From IMG/VR virus record IMGVR_UViG_3300015174_000004, positions 1 to 11,335 of that record: a stretch of 11,335 nucleotides of DNA; one strand, 5' to 3'. The notes beneath the pieces are model-generated. The model saw nothing but the letters and a program-made list of their open reading frames with translations, made no database searches and was not told where the DNA came from. The translations under genes were made by a program, and so were the position numbers. This stretch comes from a virus (lineage: Duplodnaviria > Heunggongvirae > Uroviricota > Caudoviricetes). Positions 1 to 11,335 of the stretch are shown piece by piece; the stretch's first letter is position 1; every line of letters starts with the position of its first letter.

Positions 1-1077
1 GATGAATGGAACCAGCAGGAGGCCGCCCGCATTGCGACAGAAGCATACTCATCCTCAATGATCCAGCGCACCAACCAGATTAAAGAAAATCTTGGTTATC
101 TTGAGACTGCATGTAAAGCAGTCGCAAACTCCGCAAAATGGGCATGGGATTCCATGCTGGATATTGGCAGTGAGGCCTCCCTTGATCAAAAAATCTCAGA
201 TGTTCTACGTCAAATTGATGAAATAGAAAAAAATACCCGACCCGGAGTTTTCGGGTTAGGTGGCATTGGAGATGGCGGAGCTCAAAATAAAAAGCTGGCA
301 CGATTAAAGCAGCAATTGGGCGTACTTCAAGCAGAAAAAATTGCTCAGGACGTACTAAATTCATCAATAAACGATTACAACAAGCGACAACAGGAAGGAA
401 TTGAACTCAGACAGAGAGCAGATGCTTTTTCAAAACAATATCAGACCCGGGAGCAGCAGAGAGCTAGTGAACTTGCAAAACTGGAAAAGCTAAAGAATCA
501 GTATTCAAAGGAAGAATATAATAATCTTATCGCTCAAATAAATGAGCGTTATAAAGATCCAAAGCAACCAAAGGCGAAAGGTTATTCGGATGATGCTGCC
601 CAACGAGTGATTGATCATCTGAATCAACAGAATGCGTTACTAAGTTCACAAGCTGAATTGACCGTTAAATTAAGTTCCTCTGAACAGGAACTGGTTAAGT
701 GGCGTCAGCAGATTGCCGACCTGGAGTCACGACCGTCATCGAAATTAACCCAGGATCAGAAATCGCTTCTCTTACACCGGGAAGAAATAACCGCGTTGAT
801 GGAGAAAAATGTTGCGATTGAAAAAAATAACAGGCTAATCAAGGAATCCGCCGAAATAGCTGCATGGCGTGATTCATTGCAGGCTTCAATTGATAATCGT
901 CAGCAGGGGTATGATATTCAGATTGCTGGTTATGGGGTTGGCGATAAAAATCAGCAACGCCAGCAGGAATTACTGCGGATTGAACGTGAATATAACAATC
1001 AGCGTCTGCAACTTGAACGTGACTATGCAGATAAATCCCGTGGGATGTCAAATCATGTTTTTCAGGAGAAAATGTAG
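1..1077 (+). CDS. Phage tail tape measure protein, 5'-partial; reading frame is closed by an in-frame TAG at 1075-1077
   Basis: Frame 1 is open from base 1 (the gene starts upstream of the window). The translation is rich in Q/E/K/R with coiled-coil character, typical of tape measure proteins, and it sits immediately upstream of the M-L-K-I-J tail-tip genes. The region is AT-rich compared with L-J. Confidence 0.7.
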   Translation, partial: DEWNQQEAARIATEAYSSSMIQRTNQIKENLGYLETACKAVANSAKWAWDSMLDIGSEASLDQKISDVLRQIDEIEKNTRPGVFGLGGIGDGGAQNKKLARLKQQLGVLQAEKIAQDVLNSSINDYNKRQQEGIELRQRADAFSKQYQTREQQRASELAKLEKLKNQYSKEEYNNLIAQINERYKDPKQPKAKGYSDDAAQRVIDHLNQQNALLSSQAELTVKLSSSEQELVKWRQQIADLESRPSSKLTQDQKSLLLHREEITALMEKNVAIEKNNRLIKESAEIAAWRDSLQASIDNRQQGYDIQIAGYGVGDKNQQRQQELLRIEREYNNQRLQLERDYADKSRGMSNHVFQEKM

Positions 1078-4194: not shown

Positions 4195-7100
4195 ATGGGT
4201 AAAGGCAGCAGTAAGGGGCATACCCCGCGCGAAGCGAAGGACAACCTGAAATCATCCCAGATGCTGAGCGTGATAGACGCCATCAGTGAAGGGCCGATTG
4301 AAGGTCCGGTGGACGGATTAAAAAGTGTGCTGCTGAATAGTACGCCGGTGCTGGACAGTGAGGGGAATACCAATATCTCCGGTGTCACGGTGGTGTTCCG
4401 GGCCGGTGAGCAGGAGCAGACACCGCCGGAGGGATTTGAATCCTCCGGCTCCGAGACGGTGCTGGGTACGGAAGTGAAGTACGACACGCCGATTACCCGG
4501 ACCATCACGTCTGCAAACATCGACCGTCTGCGCTTTACCTTCGGTGTGCAGGCACTGGTGGAAACCACCTCAAAGGGGGACCGGAATCCGTCGGAAGTCC
4601 GCCTGCTGGTTCAGATACAGCGTAACGGTGGCTGGGTGACGGAAAAAGACATCACCATTAAAGGCAAAACCACCTCGCAGTATCTGGCCTCGGTGGTGGT
4701 GGATAACCTGCCGCCGCGCCCGTTTAATATCCGGATGCGCAGGATGACGCCGGACAGCACCACAGACCAGCTGCAGAACAAAACGCTCTGGTCGTCATAC
4801 ACCGAAATCATCGATGTGAAACAGTGCTACCCGAACACGGCACTGGTCGGCGTACAGGTGGACTCGGAGCAGTTCGGCAGCCAGCAGGTGAGTCGTAATT
4901 ATCATCTTCGCGGGCGCATTCTGCAGGTGCCGTCGAACTATAACCCGCAGACGCGACAATACAGCGGTATCTGGGACGGAACGTTTAAGCCAGCATACAG
5001 CAACAACATGGCCTGGTGTCTGTGGGATATGCTGACCCATCCGCGCTACGGCATGGGAAAACGTCTTGGTGCGTCGGATGTGGATAAATGGGCGCTGTAT
5101 GTCATCGGCCAGTACTGCGACCAGTCGGTGCCGGACGGCTTTGGCGGCACGGAGCCGCGCATCACCTGTAATGCCTGGCTGACCACGCAGCGTAAGGCGT
5201 GGGATGTGCTCAGTGATTTCTGCTCGGCGATGCGCTGTATGCCGGTATGGAACGGGCAGACGCTGACGTTCGTGCAGGACCGACCATCAGATAAGGTGTG
5301 GACCTATAACCGCAGTAATGTGGTGATGCCGGATGATGGCGCGCCGTTCCGCTACAGCTTCAGCGCCCTGAAGGACCGCCATAATGCCGTTGAGGTGAAC
5401 TGGATTGACCCGAACAACGGCTGGGAGACGGCGACAGAGCTTGTTGAAGATACGCAGGCCATTGCCCGTTACGGTCGTAATGTCACGAAGATGGATGCCT
5501 TTGGCTGTACCAGCCGGGGGCAGGCACACCGCGCCGGGCTGTGGCTGATTAAAACGGAACTGCTGGAGACGCAGACCGTGGATTTCAGCGTGGGTGCTGA
5601 AGGGCTTCGCCATGTACCGGGCGATGTCATTGAAATCTGCGATGATGACTATGCCGGTATCAGCACCGGTGGTCGCGTGCTGGCGGTGAACAGCCAGACC
5701 CGGACGCTGACGCTCGACCGTGAAATCACGCTGCCATCCTCCGGTACCACGCTGATAAGCCTGGTTGACGGAAGTGGCAATCCGGTCAGCGTGGAGGTTC
5801 AGTCCGTCACCGACGGCGTGAAGGTAAAAGTGAGCCGTGTTCCTGACGGTGTTGCTGAATACAGCGTATGGGGGCTGAAGCTGCCGACGCTGCGCCAGCG
5901 ACTGTTCCGCTGCGTGAGTATCCGTGAGAACGACGACGGCACGTATGCCATCACCGCCGTGCAGCATGTGCCGGAAAAAGAAGCCATCGTGGATAACGGG
6001 GCGCACTTTGACGGCGACCAGAGCGGCACGGTGAATGGTGTCACGCCGCCAGCGGTGCAGCACCTGACCGCCGAAGTCACCGCAGACAGCGGGGAATATC
6101 AGGTGCTGGCGCGCTGGGACACGCCGAAGGTGGTGAAGGGCGTGAGCTTCCTGCTCCGTCTGACCGTAACAGCGGACGACGGCAGTGAGCGGCTGGTCAG
6201 CACGGCCCGGACGACGGAAACCACATACCGCTTCACGCAACTGGCGCTGGGGCGTTACACGCTGACAGTCCGGGCGGTAAATGCGTGGGGGCAGCAGGGC
6301 GATCCGGCATCGGTATCGTTCCGGATTGCGGCACCGGCAGCGCCTGTCACTATTGAACTGATACCAGGGTATTTTCAGATAACAGCGGTCCCGAAACTGG
6401 CTGTATATGACCCGACGGTGCAGTTTGAGTTCTGGTTCTCGGAAAAGCGGATTACCGATATCAGGCAGGTTGAAACCAGCGCGCGTTATCTTGGTACGGC
6501 GCTGTACTGGATAGCCGCCAGTAGCAATATTAAGCCGGGTTATGATTATTACTTTTATATCCGCAGCGTGAACACTGTTGGTAAATCGGCATTTGTGGAG
6601 GCCGTCGGTCGGGCGAGCGATGATGCGGAAGGTTATCTGAATTTTTATAAAGGGTTGATCAATAAAACGCATCTCGGCAAGGAACTGCTGGAAAACTTTG
6701 AGCTGACGGAAGATAACGCCAGCAAACTGGAGGAGTTTTCGAAAGAGTGGAAGGACGCTAACGATAAATGGAATGCCATGTGGGGCGTCAAAATTGAGCA
6801 GACCAAAGACGGCAAACATTATGTCGCGGGTATTGGCCTCAGCATGGAGGATACGGAGGAAGGCAAACTGAGCCAGTTCCTGGTTGCCGCTAACCGTATC
6901 GCGTTTATTGACCCGGCAAACGGGAATGAAACGCCGATGTTTGTGGCGCAGGGCAACCAGATATTCATGAACGACGTGTTCCTGAAACGCCTGACGGCCC
7001 CCACCATTACCAGCGGCGGTAATCCTCCGGCATTTTCCCTGACACCGGACGGGCGGCTGACGGCGAGAAATGCTGATATCAGCGGTAACGTGAATGCGAA

Positions 7101-7608
7101 CTCCGGGACGCTCAATAATGTCACGGTAAATGAAAACTGTACGATTAAGGGCATGCTGGAGGCGAACCAGGTCAGAGGTGACTTCGTTAAAACTGTATCC
7201 AAATCATTCCCGAAAAAGGCTGGTACGTGGGGTAACACGGAAACACCAAACGGGACGGTTACAGTCACCATTTACGATGATCATAACTTTGACCGCCAAA
7301 TCATTATTCCGCCCATTATTTTTAACGGTGTGGCGTATGACGATCCGGGGAGCGGTAATAACCCGGGAGGTACGCGATACACGGGTTATGGTTTTGAAGT
7401 TCGCAAAAATGGCGTATTAATCGCATCCAGAGAAACTAAAGGAGCCATTCCCGGTAGTTACAGTGCGGTTATTGATATGCCGAGTGGTGGTGGTAACGTC
7501 ACTCTGGAGTTTAAGATTTTCCAGAAAGGCAATCAGGGCGCAGGTAACATCACAGACTGTACGGTGATTGTGACCAAAAAAGCTGCTTCCGGTATCAGTA
7601 TCCGTTGA
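4195..7608 (+). CDS. J: Host specificity protein J (central tail fiber / tail tip), lambda gpJ-like
   Basis: A 1137-aa ORF with GGAG 8 nt upstream of its ATG. Its size, position after I, and N-terminal and central sequence are typical of lambda J. The last ~1 kb is visibly more AT-rich, consistent with an exchanged receptor-binding region. Confidence 0.9.
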
Positions 7609-7629
7609 AATATTTATAACCCCAATACG

Positions 7630-7657
7630 GGCGCCAGAAATGGCGCCTTTTTTATTT
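7630..7657 (+). terminator. Rho-independent terminator downstream of J
   Basis: GGCGCC-AGAAAT-GGCGCC forms a perfect GC-rich stem and is followed by TTTTTTATTT. It begins 22 nt after the J stop. Confidence 0.65.
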
Positions 7658-7668
7658 GTGGAGTGAGT

Positions 7669-10041
7669 ATGGCAGTACAGATTTCAGGTGTGCTGAAAGA
7701 TGGTGCGGGAAAACCAATACAGAACTGCACTATTCAACTGAAGGCAAAGCGTAACAGCACCACGGTACTGGTGAACACGGTGGCCTCTGAAAATCCGGAT
7801 GAAGCCGGGCGTTACAGCATGGATGTTGAGTATGGCCAGTACAGCGTTATCCTGCTGGTTGAAGGTTTTCCGCCTTCACATGCCGGAACCATTACCGTCT
7901 ATGAAGGTTCCAGACCAGGTACGCTGAATGATTTTCTCGGTGCCATGACGGAAGATGATGTCATGCCGGAGGCATTGCGTCGTTTTGAGGCAATGGTGGA
8001 AGAAGCGGCACGCAACGCTGAAGCCGCCTTTCAGAGCGCAGCGGCGGCAAAGAAATCCGAAGCTGCTGCGGCATCATCGAAGAACGCGGCGAAAAGCTCA
8101 GAAACGAATGCAGCTAACAGCGCACAGGCGGCAGCGGCCTCACAGACTGCATCGGCAAACTCCGCGACAGCAGCCCAAAAATCAGAAGCCAACGCGAAAA
8201 ATAGCGAAACAGCCGCAAAGACGAGCGAAACCAACGCGAAGTCCAGCCAGACGGCAGCGAAAACCAGCGAAACGAATGCCAAAGTCAGTGAAACTGCAGC
8301 GAAAAACAGCCAGGCTGCAGCAGCTGAAAGCGAGAGCGCAGCAGCCGGTTCTGCGACTTCAGCAGCTGGATTAGCAACTGCTGCGGCTAACAGCCAGAAA
8401 GCTGCGAAGGCGAGCGAAACTAACGCAAAGTCCAGCCAGACGGCAGCGAAGACCAGCGAAACGAATGCCAAAGCCAGCGAAACTGCGGCGAAAAGCAGTC
8501 AGGATGCAGCAGCCGAAAGCGAGAGTGCTGCAGCTGGTTCTGCAAGCGCGGCGGCTGCTTCTGCCACTGCATCAGCTAACAGTCAAAAAGCAGCAAAAAC
8601 CAGTGAAACCAACGCAAAGGTGAGCGAAACAGCGGCTGCGAACTCAGCGAAAGCATCGGCAGCAAGCCAGACGGCAGCTAAAGCAAGCGAAGATGCAGCC
8701 AGAGAGTACGCAAGCCAGGCTGCGGAGCCGTATAAATATGTCTTACAGCCGCTGCCTGATGTGTGGATACCATTTAACGATTCGCTGGATATGATTACGG
8801 GCTTTTCGCCGTCATATAAAAAGATTGTTATTGGTGATGATGAAATAACGATGCCTGGCGACAAGGTTGTTAAGTTTAAACGCGCATCGAAAGCAACCTA
8901 TATTAATAAATCTGGTGTGCTGACAGAGGCTGCCATTGACGAGCCACGGTTTGAACGTGATGGCCTGCTTATTGAGGGGCAAAGAACGAACTACATGCTC
9001 AATTCGGAAAGCCCTGCCAGTTGGGGGCGATCGTCAAATATGGATGTGCCCGAAACCGGGACGGATAGTTTTGGTTTTACCTATGGAAAGTTTGTCTGTA
9101 ACGATTCTCTGATTGGGCAAACCTCAGCCATTAATATGGCATCAATTGCTGCAACAAAGTCAGTTGATGTCTCAGGCGATAATAAACACGTGACAACCTC
9201 ATGTCGTTTTAAAACAGAACTGCAGGTAAGGTTGCGTATCCGGTTTGATAAATATGACGGTAGCGCAACAACTTTTCTTGGTGATGCGTATATTGATACA
9301 CAAACGCTTGAAATTAATATGACAGGCGGTGCTGCCTCAAGGATTACAGCGAGAGTCAGAAAGGACGAAGCTACCGGATGGATTTTTGCAGAGGCAACAA
9401 TTCAGGCAATTGATGGGGAGTTAAAAATAGGTTCTCAGATACAGTATTCTCCTAAGCAGGGCGGGGCAACCGTATCTGGTGACTATATTTATCTGGCCAC
9501 CCCACAAGTAGAAAATGGGCCTTGTGTATCATCTTTTATTATATCAGGAACGACGGCGGCGACCCGCGCAAGCGATATAGTTACAGTTCCAATTAAGAAT
9601 AATCTTTATAATCTTCCTTTTACGGTTCTTTGTGAGGTACATAAGAACTGGTATAAAACGCCAAATGCAGCGCCGCGTGTTTTTGACACCGGCGGTCATC
9701 AAACCGGAGCGGCTATTATTCTTGGCTTCGGTTCTTCAGCAGATTACGACGGATTTCCTTATTGCGATATTGGAGGAGCTAACAGACGGGTAAACGAAAA
9801 CGCATCGCTTGAAAAAATGGTTATGGGGATGCGTGTAAAGTCAGATCAGTCTACGTGCTCAGCAAGTAACGGGCGTATATCCAGCGAAACAAAAACCACA
9901 TGGTCCTGTATTCAGAACACCGCAATTATCCGTATTGGAGGCCAGACTACAGCCGGGTTACGTCATTTATTTGGTCATGTCAGGAATTTCAGAATATGGC
10001 ACAAGGCATTGACTGATGCTCAGGTGGGGGAGTCAATCTAA
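7669..10041 (+). CDS. stf: Side tail fiber protein: Stf-like N-terminus, Ala/Ser/Thr-rich repeat shaft, and a C-terminal domain with a LamG/concanavalin-like signature
   Basis: The ATG at 7669 is preceded by GGAG (7660-7663). The N-terminus (MAVQISGVLKDGAGKPIQNCTIQLKAKRNSTTV...GRYSMDVEYGQYSVIL) resembles lambda Stf. The middle is built from 7-aa repeats. The C-terminus ends in ...LFGHVRNFRIWHKALTDAQVGESI, which looks like the terminal strand of a LamG-like jelly-roll; this is a motif-level inference. The six-frame track starts at GTG 7663, but the ATG at 7669 is more likely. Confidence 0.85.
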   Translation: MAVQISGVLKDGAGKPIQNCTIQLKAKRNSTTVLVNTVASENPDEAGRYSMDVEYGQYSVILLVEGFPPSHAGTITVYEGSRPGTLNDFLGAMTEDDVMPEALRRFEAMVEEAARNAEAAFQSAAAAKKSEAAAASSKNAAKSSETNAANSAQAAAASQTASANSATAAQKSEANAKNSETAAKTSETNAKSSQTAAKTSETNAKVSETAAKNSQAAAAESESAAAGSATSAAGLATAAANSQKAAKASETNAKSSQTAAKTSETNAKASETAAKSSQDAAAESESAAAGSASAAAASATASANSQKAAKTSETNAKVSETAAANSAKASAASQTAAKASEDAAREYASQAAEPYKYVLQPLPDVWIPFNDSLDMITGFSPSYKKIVIGDDEITMPGDKVVKFKRASKATYINKSGVLTEAAIDEPRFERDGLLIEGQRTNYMLNSESPASWGRSSNMDVPETGTDSFGFTYGKFVCNDSLIGQTSAINMASIAATKSVDVSGDNKHVTTSCRFKTELQVRLRIRFDKYDGSATTFLGDAYIDTQTLEINMTGGAASRITARVRKDEATGWIFAEATIQAIDGELKIGSQIQYSPKQGGATVSGDYIYLATPQVENGPCVSSFIISGTTAATRASDIVTVPIKNNLYNLPFTVLCEVHKNWYKTPNAAPRVFDTGGHQTGAAIILGFGSSADYDGFPYCDIGGANRRVNENASLEKMVMGMRVKSDQSTCSASNGRISSETKTTWSCIQNTAIIRIGGQTTAGLRHLFGHVRNFRIWHKALTDAQVGESI
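8221..8598 (+). repeat. Two tandem 189-bp (63-aa) imperfect direct repeats inside stf, each built from nine 21-bp (7-aa) sub-repeats; degenerate copies extend from about 8040 to 8700
   Basis: Unit 1 (8221-8409) encodes TSETNAKSSQTAAKTSETNAKVSETAAKNSQAAAAESESAAAGSATSAAGLATAAANSQKAAK. Unit 2 (8410-8598) encodes ASETNAKSSQTAAKTSETNAKASETAAKSSQDAAAESESAAAGSASAAAASATASANSQKAAK. A third, partial unit starts at 8599. Confidence 0.8.
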
Positions 10042-10322
10042 TGAAAGATTTAACACTCAAATTTGAAGACAGGGCCGACTTTTCGGCCTTTATGGAGAGT
10101 ATTGGCTATTATGATGACGAGTCGATGCAGGATGATATTCTTATCGACGTGATAGGTAACGCGTACAAAGAAACCGGAGAACTGACTGAAGATGGCGAAC
10201 CGGTATGTGTTAAGGAAGACGGATATTTTGTAAACGTGCGCATCATTAATGATTCGCAAATATCGTCATTATTCGATGAGTACGTGGTTGCTGTTGAGCA
10301 TCAACTTCGTGGCTGGATGTGA
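10041..10322 (+). CDS. Hypothetical small, highly acidic protein (93 aa) of unknown function, translationally coupled to both neighbours
   Basis: Its ATG overlaps the stf stop as TAATG (10039-10043). Its TGA stop (10320-10322) lies inside the Shine-Dalgarno sequence (GAGGAAG) of the next gene. It has roughly 22 Asp/Glu against about 8 basic residues. I recognise no homologue. Confidence 0.55.
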   Translation: MKDLTLKFEDRADFSAFMESIGYYDDESMQDDILIDVIGNAYKETGELTEDGEPVCVKEDGYFVNVRIINDSQISSLFDEYVVAVEHQLRGWM

Positions 10323-10331
10323 GGAAGAAAA

Positions 10332-11268
10332 ATGGCTACATCGACAGTAATTCCTGATGACATCAAAACGCTAAAATCCGACGTTAGCAAATTAAAAAAC
10401 GATCAAGGAAGCTACGCAACAAAATTATATGTAGACAGCAAAGATGAAATCGTTGGTGACTGGTCTGCTTCATGGTATCAGCAGGTATTGCCAACTAGCG
10501 GAGCTATATTTGGGAGAAAACTCCGCTCAACTCACAGGACGGCAGGTGTTGAGGATGCGTATTGCGAACTATACCTCAAAAAATGGATAGACAGTCCAGG
10601 TAACGCAATGGCGCGCCTTAACCTGAACGATAACGGGACAAACATTTGCTGGGACTTTACCAACCTTTATGGCGGTACGATGATTTTTCCCGGTGACAGC
10701 GGATACCTCAAAATGGGTAACTGCCTTATGTCATACAGCAAGCGTGGAAGTAACGCGCTTATTAAATTTGATTACACCGACACATTACAGATCAAATATG
10801 CCAATCATGGGTCAACCATTACATTAAACACACAGGTAACCGCTTATGCTGGTGTTACTGCTCAATTGTGGGGCAACTCCAGCCGTCCTGTTGTTTATGA
10901 AGTCGGTGTTGATGGTGGCGCTTATATGTTCTATGCGCAGAAAAATACCGATAACACCTATATGTTAAGCGTTAATGGTGCATGTCATGCCACAGCATTT
11001 AACCAGCATTCAGACCGGGATCTGAAAGACAACATTCAGGTGATCGATAAAGCAACCGACCACATCCGTAAAATGAACGGCTATACATACACGCTTAAAG
11101 AAAACGGTATGCCCTATGCTGGTGTCATTGCACAGGAAGCTCTGGAAGCAATCCCAGAAGTTGTAGGTTCCGCAATGAAATATCAGGACGGTGCAAGCGG
11201 ATCGGAAGGTGAAGAAGGTGAACGTTATTACACAGTAGATTATTCTGGTGTTACTGGCTTGCTTGTTC
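10332..11268 (+). CDS. Short tail fiber / receptor-binding-like protein with a C-terminal intramolecular chaperone (peptidase S74-like) domain; 3'-truncated at the end of native sequence
   Basis: The ATG at 10332 follows GAGGAAG. The C-terminal region (HSDRDLKDNIQVIDKATDHIRKMNGYTYTL...YAGVIAQEALEAIPEVV) matches the hallmark of endosialidase/T5 pb1-type self-cleaving chaperone domains. It has a Ser-x4-Lys pair (S227 at 11010-11012, K232 at 11025-11027). The apparent end of the ORF (IGRASCRERV, stop at 11301-11303) is encoded by adapter sequence, so the true C-terminus is missing. Confidence 0.7.
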
Positions 11269-11335
11269 AGATCGGAAGAGCGTCGTGTAGGGAAAGAGTG
11301 TAGATCTCGGTGGTCGCCGTATCATTAAAAAAAAA
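11269..11335 (+). other. Non-biological sequence: Illumina TruSeq adapter read-through (11269-11326) followed by a 9-nt poly-A (11327-11335)
   Basis: The 58 nt AGATCGGAAGAGCGTCGTGTAGGGAAAGAGTGTAGATCTCGGTGGTCGCCGTATCATT is the standard Illumina adapter-trimming sequence, which is the reverse complement of the universal P5 adapter. It is followed by nine A's at the contig terminus. Confidence 0.92.

What the first reader, a model, noticed from the sequence alone, without database searches (positions are those of the whole stretch)
11010..11027. Predicted autoproteolytic site (Ser-x4-Lys) of the chaperone domain in the last gene
The motif HSDRDLKDNI has S227 and K232 five residues apart, followed by the conserved ...GYTYTL...YAGVIAQE...PEVV segment. 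This fits the Ser/Lys catalytic pair of endosialidase-type intramolecular chaperones, which cleave immediately N-terminal to the Ser after trimerisation. The mature binding module would then be about 226 residues (10332-11009).
Basis: partly seen in the sequence, partly recalled or inferred. Interest (0 to 1): 0.5.

Follow-up and report, generated by a model that had tools for sequence, protein, structure and literature searches.

The report
Self-cleaving chaperone domain of tail fibre
The last gene of this lambda-like phage tail region encodes a small tail fibre with an ordinary, already catalogued self-cleaving folding domain (peptidase S74); the predicted Ser227/Lys232 cut site is real, but the gene's end and stop codon are a sequencing-adapter artefact.

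Summary
Window 11010-11027 encodes S227-D-R-D-L-K232 of the ORF starting at 10332. The motif lies at position 1 of a significant Pfam Peptidase_S74 match (E 1.6e-13, 51 bits, cutoff 22).

A profile of homologues puts the Ser and Lys columns on the mutagenesis-validated dyad of MyRF (A587 in the S587A crystal construct, and K592). It also matches the phage S16 gp37 chaperone domain at E 3e-13. An AlphaFold model's best fold matches are MyRF ICA, endoNF, GA-1 and T5 chaperone domains. 125 of 126 homologues keep S-x4-K.

The likely mechanism is that the C-terminal domain drives trimerisation and then cuts H226|S227, leaving a 226-residue mature fibre. This is inferred, not shown.

Three corrections:
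- Window 11269-11326 is an exact Illumina adapter followed by poly-A, so the last 10 codons and the stop are artefacts. The true protein has 346 aa and ends in a coiled coil that the window lacks.
- S-x4-K alone is not significant (2 sites, 1.4 expected).
- "Binding module" is untested. The variable part is aa 41-100, and aa 107-225 is a conserved T4 gp34-like knob.

Near-identical proteins (98%) are already annotated with this domain, so the finding is ordinary.

The parts
10332..11009 (+). Predicted mature tail-fibre polypeptide, residues 1-226, released after cleavage
   Evidence: ORF start ATG with GAGGA upstream. phrog_4563 'tail fiber protein' matches 1-346 of 346 at E=2e-219. Ends immediately before Ser227, which is Pfam S74 profile position 1.
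10332..10439 (+). Conserved N-terminal adaptor plus short coiled coil (aa 1-36, M-x-T-x-T-V-I-P-x-D-I-K-T-L-K-S-D-V-S...). The number of TLKSDVS-like repeats varies between homologues.
   Evidence: Alignment A1. The model has a helix at 10-24. The same N-terminus sits on a different body in PhiR49_1.
10452..10646 (+). Most variable segment of the mature fibre (aa 41-105); candidate specificity determinant
   Evidence: Identity among close full-length homologues is 39-44% for aa 41-100, against 78% or more for aa 121-320.
10650..11009 (+). Conserved knob-type region (aa 107-226; W180 G181 R185 V188 E190 F200 Y201 Q203 N215 G216), related to T4 gp34 knob repeats
   Evidence: Profile against PDB gives 5nxf, 5nxh and 4uxe (T4 gp34) at E about 1e-5 over profile positions 165-215. 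The region also occurs before non-S74 C-termini in other fibres.
11010..11012 (+). Ser227 codon (TCA): predicted nucleophile; the scissile bond is H226|S227
   Evidence: Literature: PMC8326128, PMC4690869.
11025..11027 (+). Lys232 codon (AAA): predicted general base of the Ser-Lys dyad
   Evidence: Aligned to MyRF K592. Present in 125 of 126 homologues.
11010..11268 (+). Genuine part of the S74 intramolecular chaperone domain present in the window (aa 227 to about 313). The last 33 residues, including the trimerising coiled coil, are missing.
   Evidence: Pfam match 227-278. The full-length homologues WP_001314683.1 and YP_009909995.1 continue ...LLVQVARESDDRITALEEENAELKQRLSAIEATLASK. The model has a helix at 304-345 with pLDDT above 90.
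11269..11335 (.). Sequencing artefact: 58-nt Illumina adapter (11269-11326) plus A9. It creates the false C-terminus IGRASCRERV and the false stop at 11301-11303.
   Evidence: Exact match with 0 mismatches and 0 expected. BLAST matches end at window 11270, and the tail matches only scattered unrelated records.
10041..10322 (+). 93-aa protein of unknown function (phrog_1361) that travels with the fibre gene
   Evidence: A 52%-identical orthologue sits in the same position in an unrelated phage backbone.
7663..10041 (+). Stf-like side tail fibre protein (792 aa): PF08400 N-terminal anchor, Ala-rich repeat shaft, and a C-terminal domain of about 430 aa. It is the first gene of the three-gene cassette.
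   Evidence: The C-terminal 540 aa are 59% identical to the protein upstream of a divergent S74 fibre in L006.

Best explanation
The gene starting at 10332 encodes a short trimeric tail-fibre protein of a lambda-like phage or prophage. Its true length is 346 aa. The C-terminal 120 residues (Ser227 to the end) form a peptidase-S74 intramolecular chaperone domain.

By analogy with endoNF, T5 pb1 and MyRF, the C-terminal helices of three chains zip into a coiled coil. This registers and folds the upstream fibre into a trimer. Once the trimer is formed, Lys232 activates Ser227, which attacks the H226-S227 peptide bond. The chaperone trimer (residues 227-346) then leaves, and a stable mature fibre of residues 1-226 remains on the virion.

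What is shown here: domain membership, the position and conservation of the dyad, the fold similarity and the fibre context. What is inferred: trimerisation, cleavage, the exact scissile bond and release.

The mature fibre probably docks through its conserved N-terminal peptide to the upstream Stf-like protein and/or the 93-aa protein, because the three genes move together between phages. The copy in the window is cut by a sequencing adapter at codon 313, so its apparent C-terminus and stop are artefacts, not biology.
For: Sequence and profile evidence:
- Pfam Peptidase_S74 at E=1.6e-13, with Ser227 at profile position 1.
- A profile of 19 diverse homologue C-termini against PDB gives S16 gp37 (6f45) at E=3.1e-13 over the whole domain including the terminal helix.
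- The same search gives MyRF ICA (7dc3, S587A construct) at E=1.6e-8, with the Ser column on A587 and the Lys column on K592. GA-1 3gud chain residue 1 aligns to the Ser column.

Structure evidence:
- AlphaFold2 model of the 98%-identical full-length P0001 has mean pLDDT 71 and a helix at 304-345 with pLDDT above 90.
- Foldseek top hits are 7dc3 and 3gud at probability 1.00.

Conservation:
- S-x4-K is conserved in 125 of 126 homologues.
- G250, Y253, A263-G264, A267-Q-E269 and P275-E276 are invariant, and R316 (65 of 68), E317 (invariant) and R321 (66 of 68) are conserved.

Context:
- PHROG matches always fall at the extreme C-terminus of tail-fibre families.
- The neighbourhood is H-M-L-K-I-J-Stf.
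- The three-gene cassette is conserved in another phage backbone.

Literature for the mechanism: PMC8326128, PMC3742443, PMC4690869.
Against: - No experiment exists on this protein or a close relative, so cleavage is inferred.
- The Arg folding sensor used by endoNF (R897) and T5 (R1250), 14 residues before the Ser, has no counterpart. Residue 213 is Ser, there is no Arg between 186 and 226, and position 210 is Arg in only 13 of 68 homologues. MyRF also lacks such a sensor and still cleaves (PMC8326128).
- The model is a monomer of moderate confidence (pTM 0.39), so dyad geometry could not be checked.
- Foldseek E-values are modest (3e-3).
- The window copy lacks the coiled coil, though this is an assembly artefact.
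Confidence: 0.88

Rival explanations
1. The domain is an S74-type chaperone that assists trimerisation but is not cleaved off, or is cleaved only partly. It would stay attached as a cap at the fibre tip.
For: The upstream Arg sensor of endoNF and T5 is absent at the equivalent spacing. The 6f45 chain still contains the SDRRIK motif and the chaperone-like C-terminus, which shows that uncleaved forms can be crystallised; I did not check whether that construct was mutated.
Against: Ser and Lys are conserved in 125 of 126 homologues. That is hard to explain without catalytic selection. MyRF cleaves without a stalk Arg (PMC8326128).
Confidence: 0.08
2. The S-x4-K motif is a chance occurrence in a fibre protein with no chaperone or protease domain.
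For: S-x4-K alone occurs about as often as expected: 2 observed against 1.4 expected.
Against: Significant Pfam and PDB profile matches cover the whole domain, with the dyad in register. Fold matches agree, and so does conservation.
Confidence: 0.01
3. The gene in this genome really is truncated and non-functional (323 aa, no coiled coil), that is, a decaying prophage gene.
For: The ORF as given stops at 11303. The tape-measure gene of the same window carries an in-frame TAG at 1075-1077. A relative, PhiR47_1, has a premature stop inside the domain.
Against: The divergence point coincides exactly with a 58-nt Illumina adapter followed by poly-A at the contig end. Up to that point identity to intact 346-aa genes is 99% or more.
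Confidence: 0.03

Closest known systems
T5 L-shaped tail fibre pb1 C-terminal intramolecular chaperone (PDB 4UW8; PMC4690869)
   Different: pb1 has 1396 aa and a bullet-shaped receptor-binding domain. It uses Arg1250 of a neighbouring chain as a folding sensor. Here the mature part is only 226 aa, precedes the chaperone with a gp34-type knob, and has no Arg at the equivalent position.
Phage S16 (T4-like) long tail fibre distal subunit gp37 C-terminus (PDB 6F45)
   Same: The best sequence relative with a solved structure, at E=3.1e-13. The SDRxxK, GYTY and AGxIAQE motifs and the terminal coiled coil all align.
   Different: It belongs to a myovirus long tail fibre that carries the gp38 adhesin, and the body upstream is different.
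K1F endosialidase endoNF C-terminal chaperone (MEROPS/Pfam S74 type member; PDB 3GW6)
   Different: endoNF is a tailspike with a sialidase beta-propeller, a triple beta-helix stalk and long tentacles, and it uses Arg897 as sensor. No enzymatic domain is detected here.
MyRF ICA domain (PDB 7DC3; PMC8326128, PMC3742443)
   Different: It is a eukaryotic membrane-bound transcription factor, and its ICA domain stays on the membrane after cleavage.

Membership tests
Peptidase S74 / intramolecular chaperone (ICA, CIMCD) domain, Pfam PF13884 | Significant match to the family profile above the curated threshold | tested here: met
   51.2 bits against a cutoff of 22, E=1.6e-13, profile positions 1-57 of 58. 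PF13884 is precomputed on nearly all of the 120 homologues listed.
Peptidase S74 / intramolecular chaperone (ICA, CIMCD) domain, Pfam PF13884 | Ser nucleophile and Lys base spaced Ser-x4-Lys at the N-terminal border of the domain, aligned to validated catalytic residues | tested here: met
   S227 and K232. The profile columns fall on MyRF A587 (S587A construct) and K592, and on residue 1 of the 3gud chain. Conserved in 125 of 126 homologues. The spacing equals endoNF 911/916 and T5 1264/1269 (PMC8326128, PMC4690869).
Peptidase S74 / intramolecular chaperone (ICA, CIMCD) domain, Pfam PF13884 | Domain lies at the extreme C-terminus of a trimeric fibre or spike protein and ends in a trimerising alpha-helical coiled coil | tested here: met
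   Met in the full-length homologues: residues 304-345 are predicted helical with pLDDT above 90 and align to the S16 and MyRF coiled coils. Not present in the window itself, because the adapter replaces codons 314-346.
Peptidase S74 / intramolecular chaperone (ICA, CIMCD) domain, Pfam PF13884 | Fold of the solved chaperone domains (mixed alpha-beta hairpins around a central helix) | tested here: met
Peptidase S74 / intramolecular chaperone (ICA, CIMCD) domain, Pfam PF13884 | Upstream Arg from a neighbouring chain forming the oxyanion hole or folding sensor (endoNF R897, T5 R1250; not present in MyRF) | tested here: inconclusive
   There is no Arg at position -14 and none between residues 186 and 226. 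Invariant R185 and conserved R229 are candidates that cannot be placed without a trimer model. This feature is not universal in the family (PMC8326128).
Peptidase S74 / intramolecular chaperone (ICA, CIMCD) domain, Pfam PF13884 | Trimerisation-dependent autoproteolysis immediately N-terminal to the Ser, abolished by Ser-to-Ala or Lys-to-Ala substitution | not testable with these tools
   Requires expression and SDS-PAGE or mass spectrometry of wild type, S227A and K232A.
Endosialidase / depolymerase tailspike | Catalytic glycosidase or lyase domain (beta-propeller or beta-helix) upstream of the chaperone | tested here: not met
   There are no Pfam or NCBIfam hits upstream of residue 227. The upstream region is 226 aa with a gp34-type knob. 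The protein shares only the chaperone with endosialidases.

The most novel reading that the evidence does not exclude
The S74 fibre may be the distal or secondary receptor-binding protein of a portable three-gene side-fibre cassette. The cassette consists of the C-terminal domain (about 430 aa) of the large fibre protein, a protein of about 92 aa, and a short S74 fibre with a conserved N-terminal docking peptide. It moves as a unit between unrelated phage backbones and gives lambdoid phages a two-part or branched side fibre. Specificity would sit in the mid-region (aa 41-100) rather than directly before the chaperone. None of this was tested for physical interaction.
Probability: 0.35. Interest if true: 0.4.

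Novelty: already known. Interest (0 to 1): 0.15.

Why it matters
This matters little beyond correct annotation. The S74 self-cleaving chaperone is a well-studied module, and near-identical proteins (98%) in E. coli prophages and coliphages already carry the PF13884 annotation. About 470 of 5426 complete E. coli genomes have a match covering 80% or more of the query.

Three practical points follow:
- Anyone expressing or engineering this fibre must include the full 346-aa gene. The 323-aa ORF in this contig would lack the coiled coil and probably neither fold nor cleave.
- The mature virion protein should be searched for as residues 1-226.
- The contig carries untrimmed adapter, so ORFs at its ends should not be trusted.

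Tried and rejected
- Single-sequence phmmer against PDB gave only a marginal hit (6f45, E=0.021). A profile was needed.
- NCBIfam gave nothing meaningful for the fibre or the 93-aa protein.
- I looked for the endoNF/T5-type Arg sensor 14 residues upstream of the Ser and found none.
- I considered that the 323-aa ORF is a genuine truncation. I rejected this because the break is exactly at an adapter.
- I considered that the roughly 98-aa gene downstream in complete phages is a separate fibre chaperone. It looks like a small hydrophobic membrane protein with no family match, so there is no support.
- A first count of S/K conservation was circular, because rows had been selected on S and K. I redid it with an independent selector, G-x-IAQE.
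- Literature searches found no paper on this particular lambdoid fibre.

Full report
**Observation.** The ORF 10332-11303 (+) translates to 323 aa. Window 11010-11027 reads TCAGACCGGGATCTGAAA, which is S227-D-R-D-L-K232 inside HSDRDLKDNI. The downstream GYTYTL (250-255), YAGVIAQE (262-269) and PEVV (275-278) are present as described. The bare S-x4-K pattern is not informative: it occurs twice in the ORF (S140 and S227) against 1.4 expected from composition. The significance lies in the context.

**Profile evidence.**
- Pfam-A gives a single hit, PF13884 Peptidase_S74 ("chaperone of endosialidase"), at E=1.6e-13 and 51.2 bits against a curated cutoff of 22. Residues 227-278 align to profile positions 1-57 of 58, so Ser227 is the first profile position.
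- A profile of full-length homologues against all PDB sequences finds phage S16 gp37 (6f45, E=2e-8) and MyRF (7dc3, E=1e-3) for the C-terminal part.
- A profile of only the C-terminal 140 residues of 19 diverse homologues sharpens this to 6f45 at E=3.1e-13 and 7dc3 at E=1.6e-8.
- In the 7dc3 alignment the Ser column falls on A587 (the crystal construct is S587A) and the Lys column on K592. The GA-1 chaperone chain 3gud begins at the Ser column.
- In MyRF, S587A and K592A abolish cleavage, the cut is P586|S587, and these residues are equated with endoNF S911/K916 (PMC8326128; also PMC3742443).
- In T5 pb1 the cut is T1263|S1264, with K1269 as the base (PMC4690869).

**Conservation.** A search of 5.8 billion proteins returned 191 homologues at E<=1e-5, nearly all with precomputed PF13884. 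Sources name them "tail fiber domain-containing protein", "peptidase S74", "chaperone of endosialidase" or "pyocin knob domain-containing S74 family peptidase". I selected homologues by an independent downstream motif (G-x-IAQE). Of 126 selected, 125 have S-x4-K at the expected distance (SDRDLK 115, SDRELK 8, SDKDLK 1, SDRRLK 1). The single exception carries a 42-residue internal deletion. G250, Y253, A263-G264, A267-Q-E269 and P275-E276 are invariant, and R316 (65 of 68), E317 (invariant) and R321 (66 of 68) are conserved.

**Structure.** An AlphaFold2 monomer model of P0001 (346 aa, 98% identical to the window protein) with an 85-sequence alignment has mean pLDDT 71 and pTM 0.39. The helix at 304-345 has pLDDT above 90.
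- Foldseek against PDB ranks MyRF ICA (7dc3) and the GA-1 chaperone (3gud) first, both at probability 1.00, followed by T4 gp34.
- Beta-barrel membrane proteins at similar Z relate to the N-terminal beta-rich part of a monomer model of what must be a trimer. I discount them.

**A correction to the gene model.**
- Window 11269-11326 is an exact, zero-mismatch copy of the 58-nt sequence AGATCGGAAGAGCGTCGTGTAGGGAAAGAGTGTAGATCTCGGTGGTCGCCGTATCATT, followed by nine A's to the end of the window. From my own knowledge this is the reverse complement of the Illumina TruSeq universal adapter.
- BLAST matches to phages and to E. coli genomes are 99% or more identical up to window 11270 and then stop. The tail matches only scattered unrelated records from other phage groups, as adapter contamination would.
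- The intact gene in E. coli T-HYM1 (WP_001314683.1) is 346 aa and the one in phage 2G7b (YP_009909995.1) is 345 aa. They continue ...GLLVQVARESDDRITALEEENAELKQRLSAIEATLASK.
- The residues IGRASCRERV and the stop at 11301-11303 are therefore artefacts. The window lacks the last 33 residues, which form the coiled coil. In MyRF this coiled coil is the main driving force for trimerisation and is required for cleavage (PMC8326128, PMC3742443).

**What the mature part looks like.**
- Residues 1-36 are a conserved N-terminal peptide (M-x-T-x-T-V-I-P-x-D-I-K-T-L-K-S-D-V-S) plus a short coiled coil. The repeat number varies between homologues.
- Residues 41-100 are the most variable stretch among close relatives (39-44% identity, against 78% or more for 121-320).
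- Residues 107-225 are a conserved knob-type region (W180, G181, R185, V188, E190, F200, Y201, Q203, N215, G216). It matches the repeated knob of T4 gp34 (5nxf, 5nxh, 4uxe; E about 1e-5).
- An exhaustive search with residues 1-226 found only 47 representative clusters. The 107-219 region recurs near the C-terminus of larger fibres. Some of these end not in an S74 domain but in an ...NFDSRY...VRLG... tip. The knob is thus shared between chaperone-type fibres and fibres with this other kind of tip.
- No enzymatic domain was detected. "Binding module" is a reasonable label but is not demonstrated.

**Context.** The window is a lambda-like tail module:
- tape measure, to 1812;
- M (1805-2143);
- L (2143-2841);
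- K, with JAB and NlpC/P60 domains;
- I;
- J (4195-7608);
- a 792-aa Stf-like protein (7663-10041) with a PF08400 N-terminus, an Ala-rich repeat shaft and a C-terminal domain hit by the NCBIfam "head spike fiber" model;
- a 93-aa protein (10041-10322, phrog_1361);
- the S74 fibre.

The nearest phages are Tritos, HannyBb, PhiR63_1 and 2G7b, at 95-96% identity over 75-81% of the window. In metagenomic contigs of a different phage type (with ERF recombinase and primase), divergent S74 fibres (40-42% identical) are again preceded by a protein of about 92 aa (52% identical). Before that lies a 646-653-aa protein whose C-terminal 540 residues are 59% identical to the Stf-like protein. In PhiR49_1 the same 93-aa gene and the same fibre N-terminus are joined to a different short body with its own divergent S74 domain (SSIRYK; Pfam 27.3 bits). 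The three genes therefore behave as a cassette, and the fibre N-terminus is probably the docking element. This is inference from synteny only.

**Mechanism proposed.** Three nascent chains are brought into register by the C-terminal coiled coil. The chaperone templates folding of the knob and fibre. In the folded trimer Lys232 deprotonates Ser227, which attacks the H226-S227 bond. The chaperone trimer dissociates and leaves a stable fibre of residues 1-226.

Domain membership, dyad position, fold and context are shown here. Trimerisation, cleavage and release are inferred from the family.

One difference from endoNF and T5 is that the Arg sensor 14 residues upstream of the Ser (R897, R1250) has no counterpart. 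Residue 213 is Ser, there is no Arg between 186 and 226, and position 210 is Arg in only 13 of 68 homologues. MyRF also has no such stalk residue and still cleaves (PMC8326128), so this does not argue strongly against cleavage.

**Verdict.** The domain is a textbook module, and the same protein is already annotated with it in public databases; the matching region of phage ESCO3 carries an "endosialidase chaperone" annotation. The useful new information is negative: the 3' end of the gene in this contig is adapter sequence.

Noticed in passing
window 11269-11335: Exact 58-nt Illumina adapter (reverse complement of the TruSeq universal adapter) followed by A9 at the contig end. It fuses in frame to the last gene and creates a false C-terminus and stop codon.
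   Followed up: yes
window 1075-1077: In-frame TAG inside the tape-measure gene. The reading frame is otherwise continuous from before position 1 to 1812, and Salmonella phage SPF_0923 has CAG at this codon. This is an amber or nonsense mutation, a decaying prophage, or a sequencing error.
   Followed up: partly
window 7663-10322; L006:3753-7017; L008:2002-5240: The C-terminal half of the Stf-like protein, the protein of about 92 aa and the S74 fibre form a three-gene cassette. It is conserved (59%, 52% and about 42% identity) in an unrelated phage backbone with a different N-terminal anchor.
   Followed up: partly
window 8740-10041 (Stf-like aa about 360-792): The Stf-like protein has its own large C-terminal domain. 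It is hit by NCBIfam NF048003 'phage head spike fiber domain' at aa 436-636. It ends in ...IRIGGQTTAGLRHLFGHVRNFRIWHKALTDAQV, which looks to me like a ConA/LamG-type lectin signature (from memory, not tested). No tfa gene follows it in the window.
   Followed up: no
L004:4372-5076 (phage PhiR49_1): A 234-aa fibre with the same N-terminal 15 residues as the window protein but a different, much shorter body and a divergent S74 domain (SSIRYK at 116-121). This indicates exchange of the body plus chaperone behind a fixed adaptor.
   Followed up: partly
L003:4020-4904 (phage PhiR47_1): The orthologous fibre gene has a premature stop after codon 294, inside the chaperone domain, followed by a 37-codon ORF. 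This is a frameshift, a pseudogene or a sequencing error.
   Followed up: no
L001:4510-4809; L004:5087-5380: In complete phages the fibre gene is followed by a conserved, very hydrophobic protein of about 98 aa (two TM-like stretches, no Pfam hit) and then by tfa remnants. It could be a moron or exclusion gene rather than a fibre chaperone.
   Followed up: no
window 10650-11009 (aa 107-226): The knob region before the cleavage site is homologous to the repeated knobs of T4 gp34. It also occurs in fibres that end in an NFDSRY...VRLG-type tip instead of an S74 domain.
   Followed up: partly
window 7600-7663: There is no lom gene between J and the Stf-like gene in this window, whereas 2G7b, PhiR47_1 and PhiR49_1 carry lom there.
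   Followed up: no
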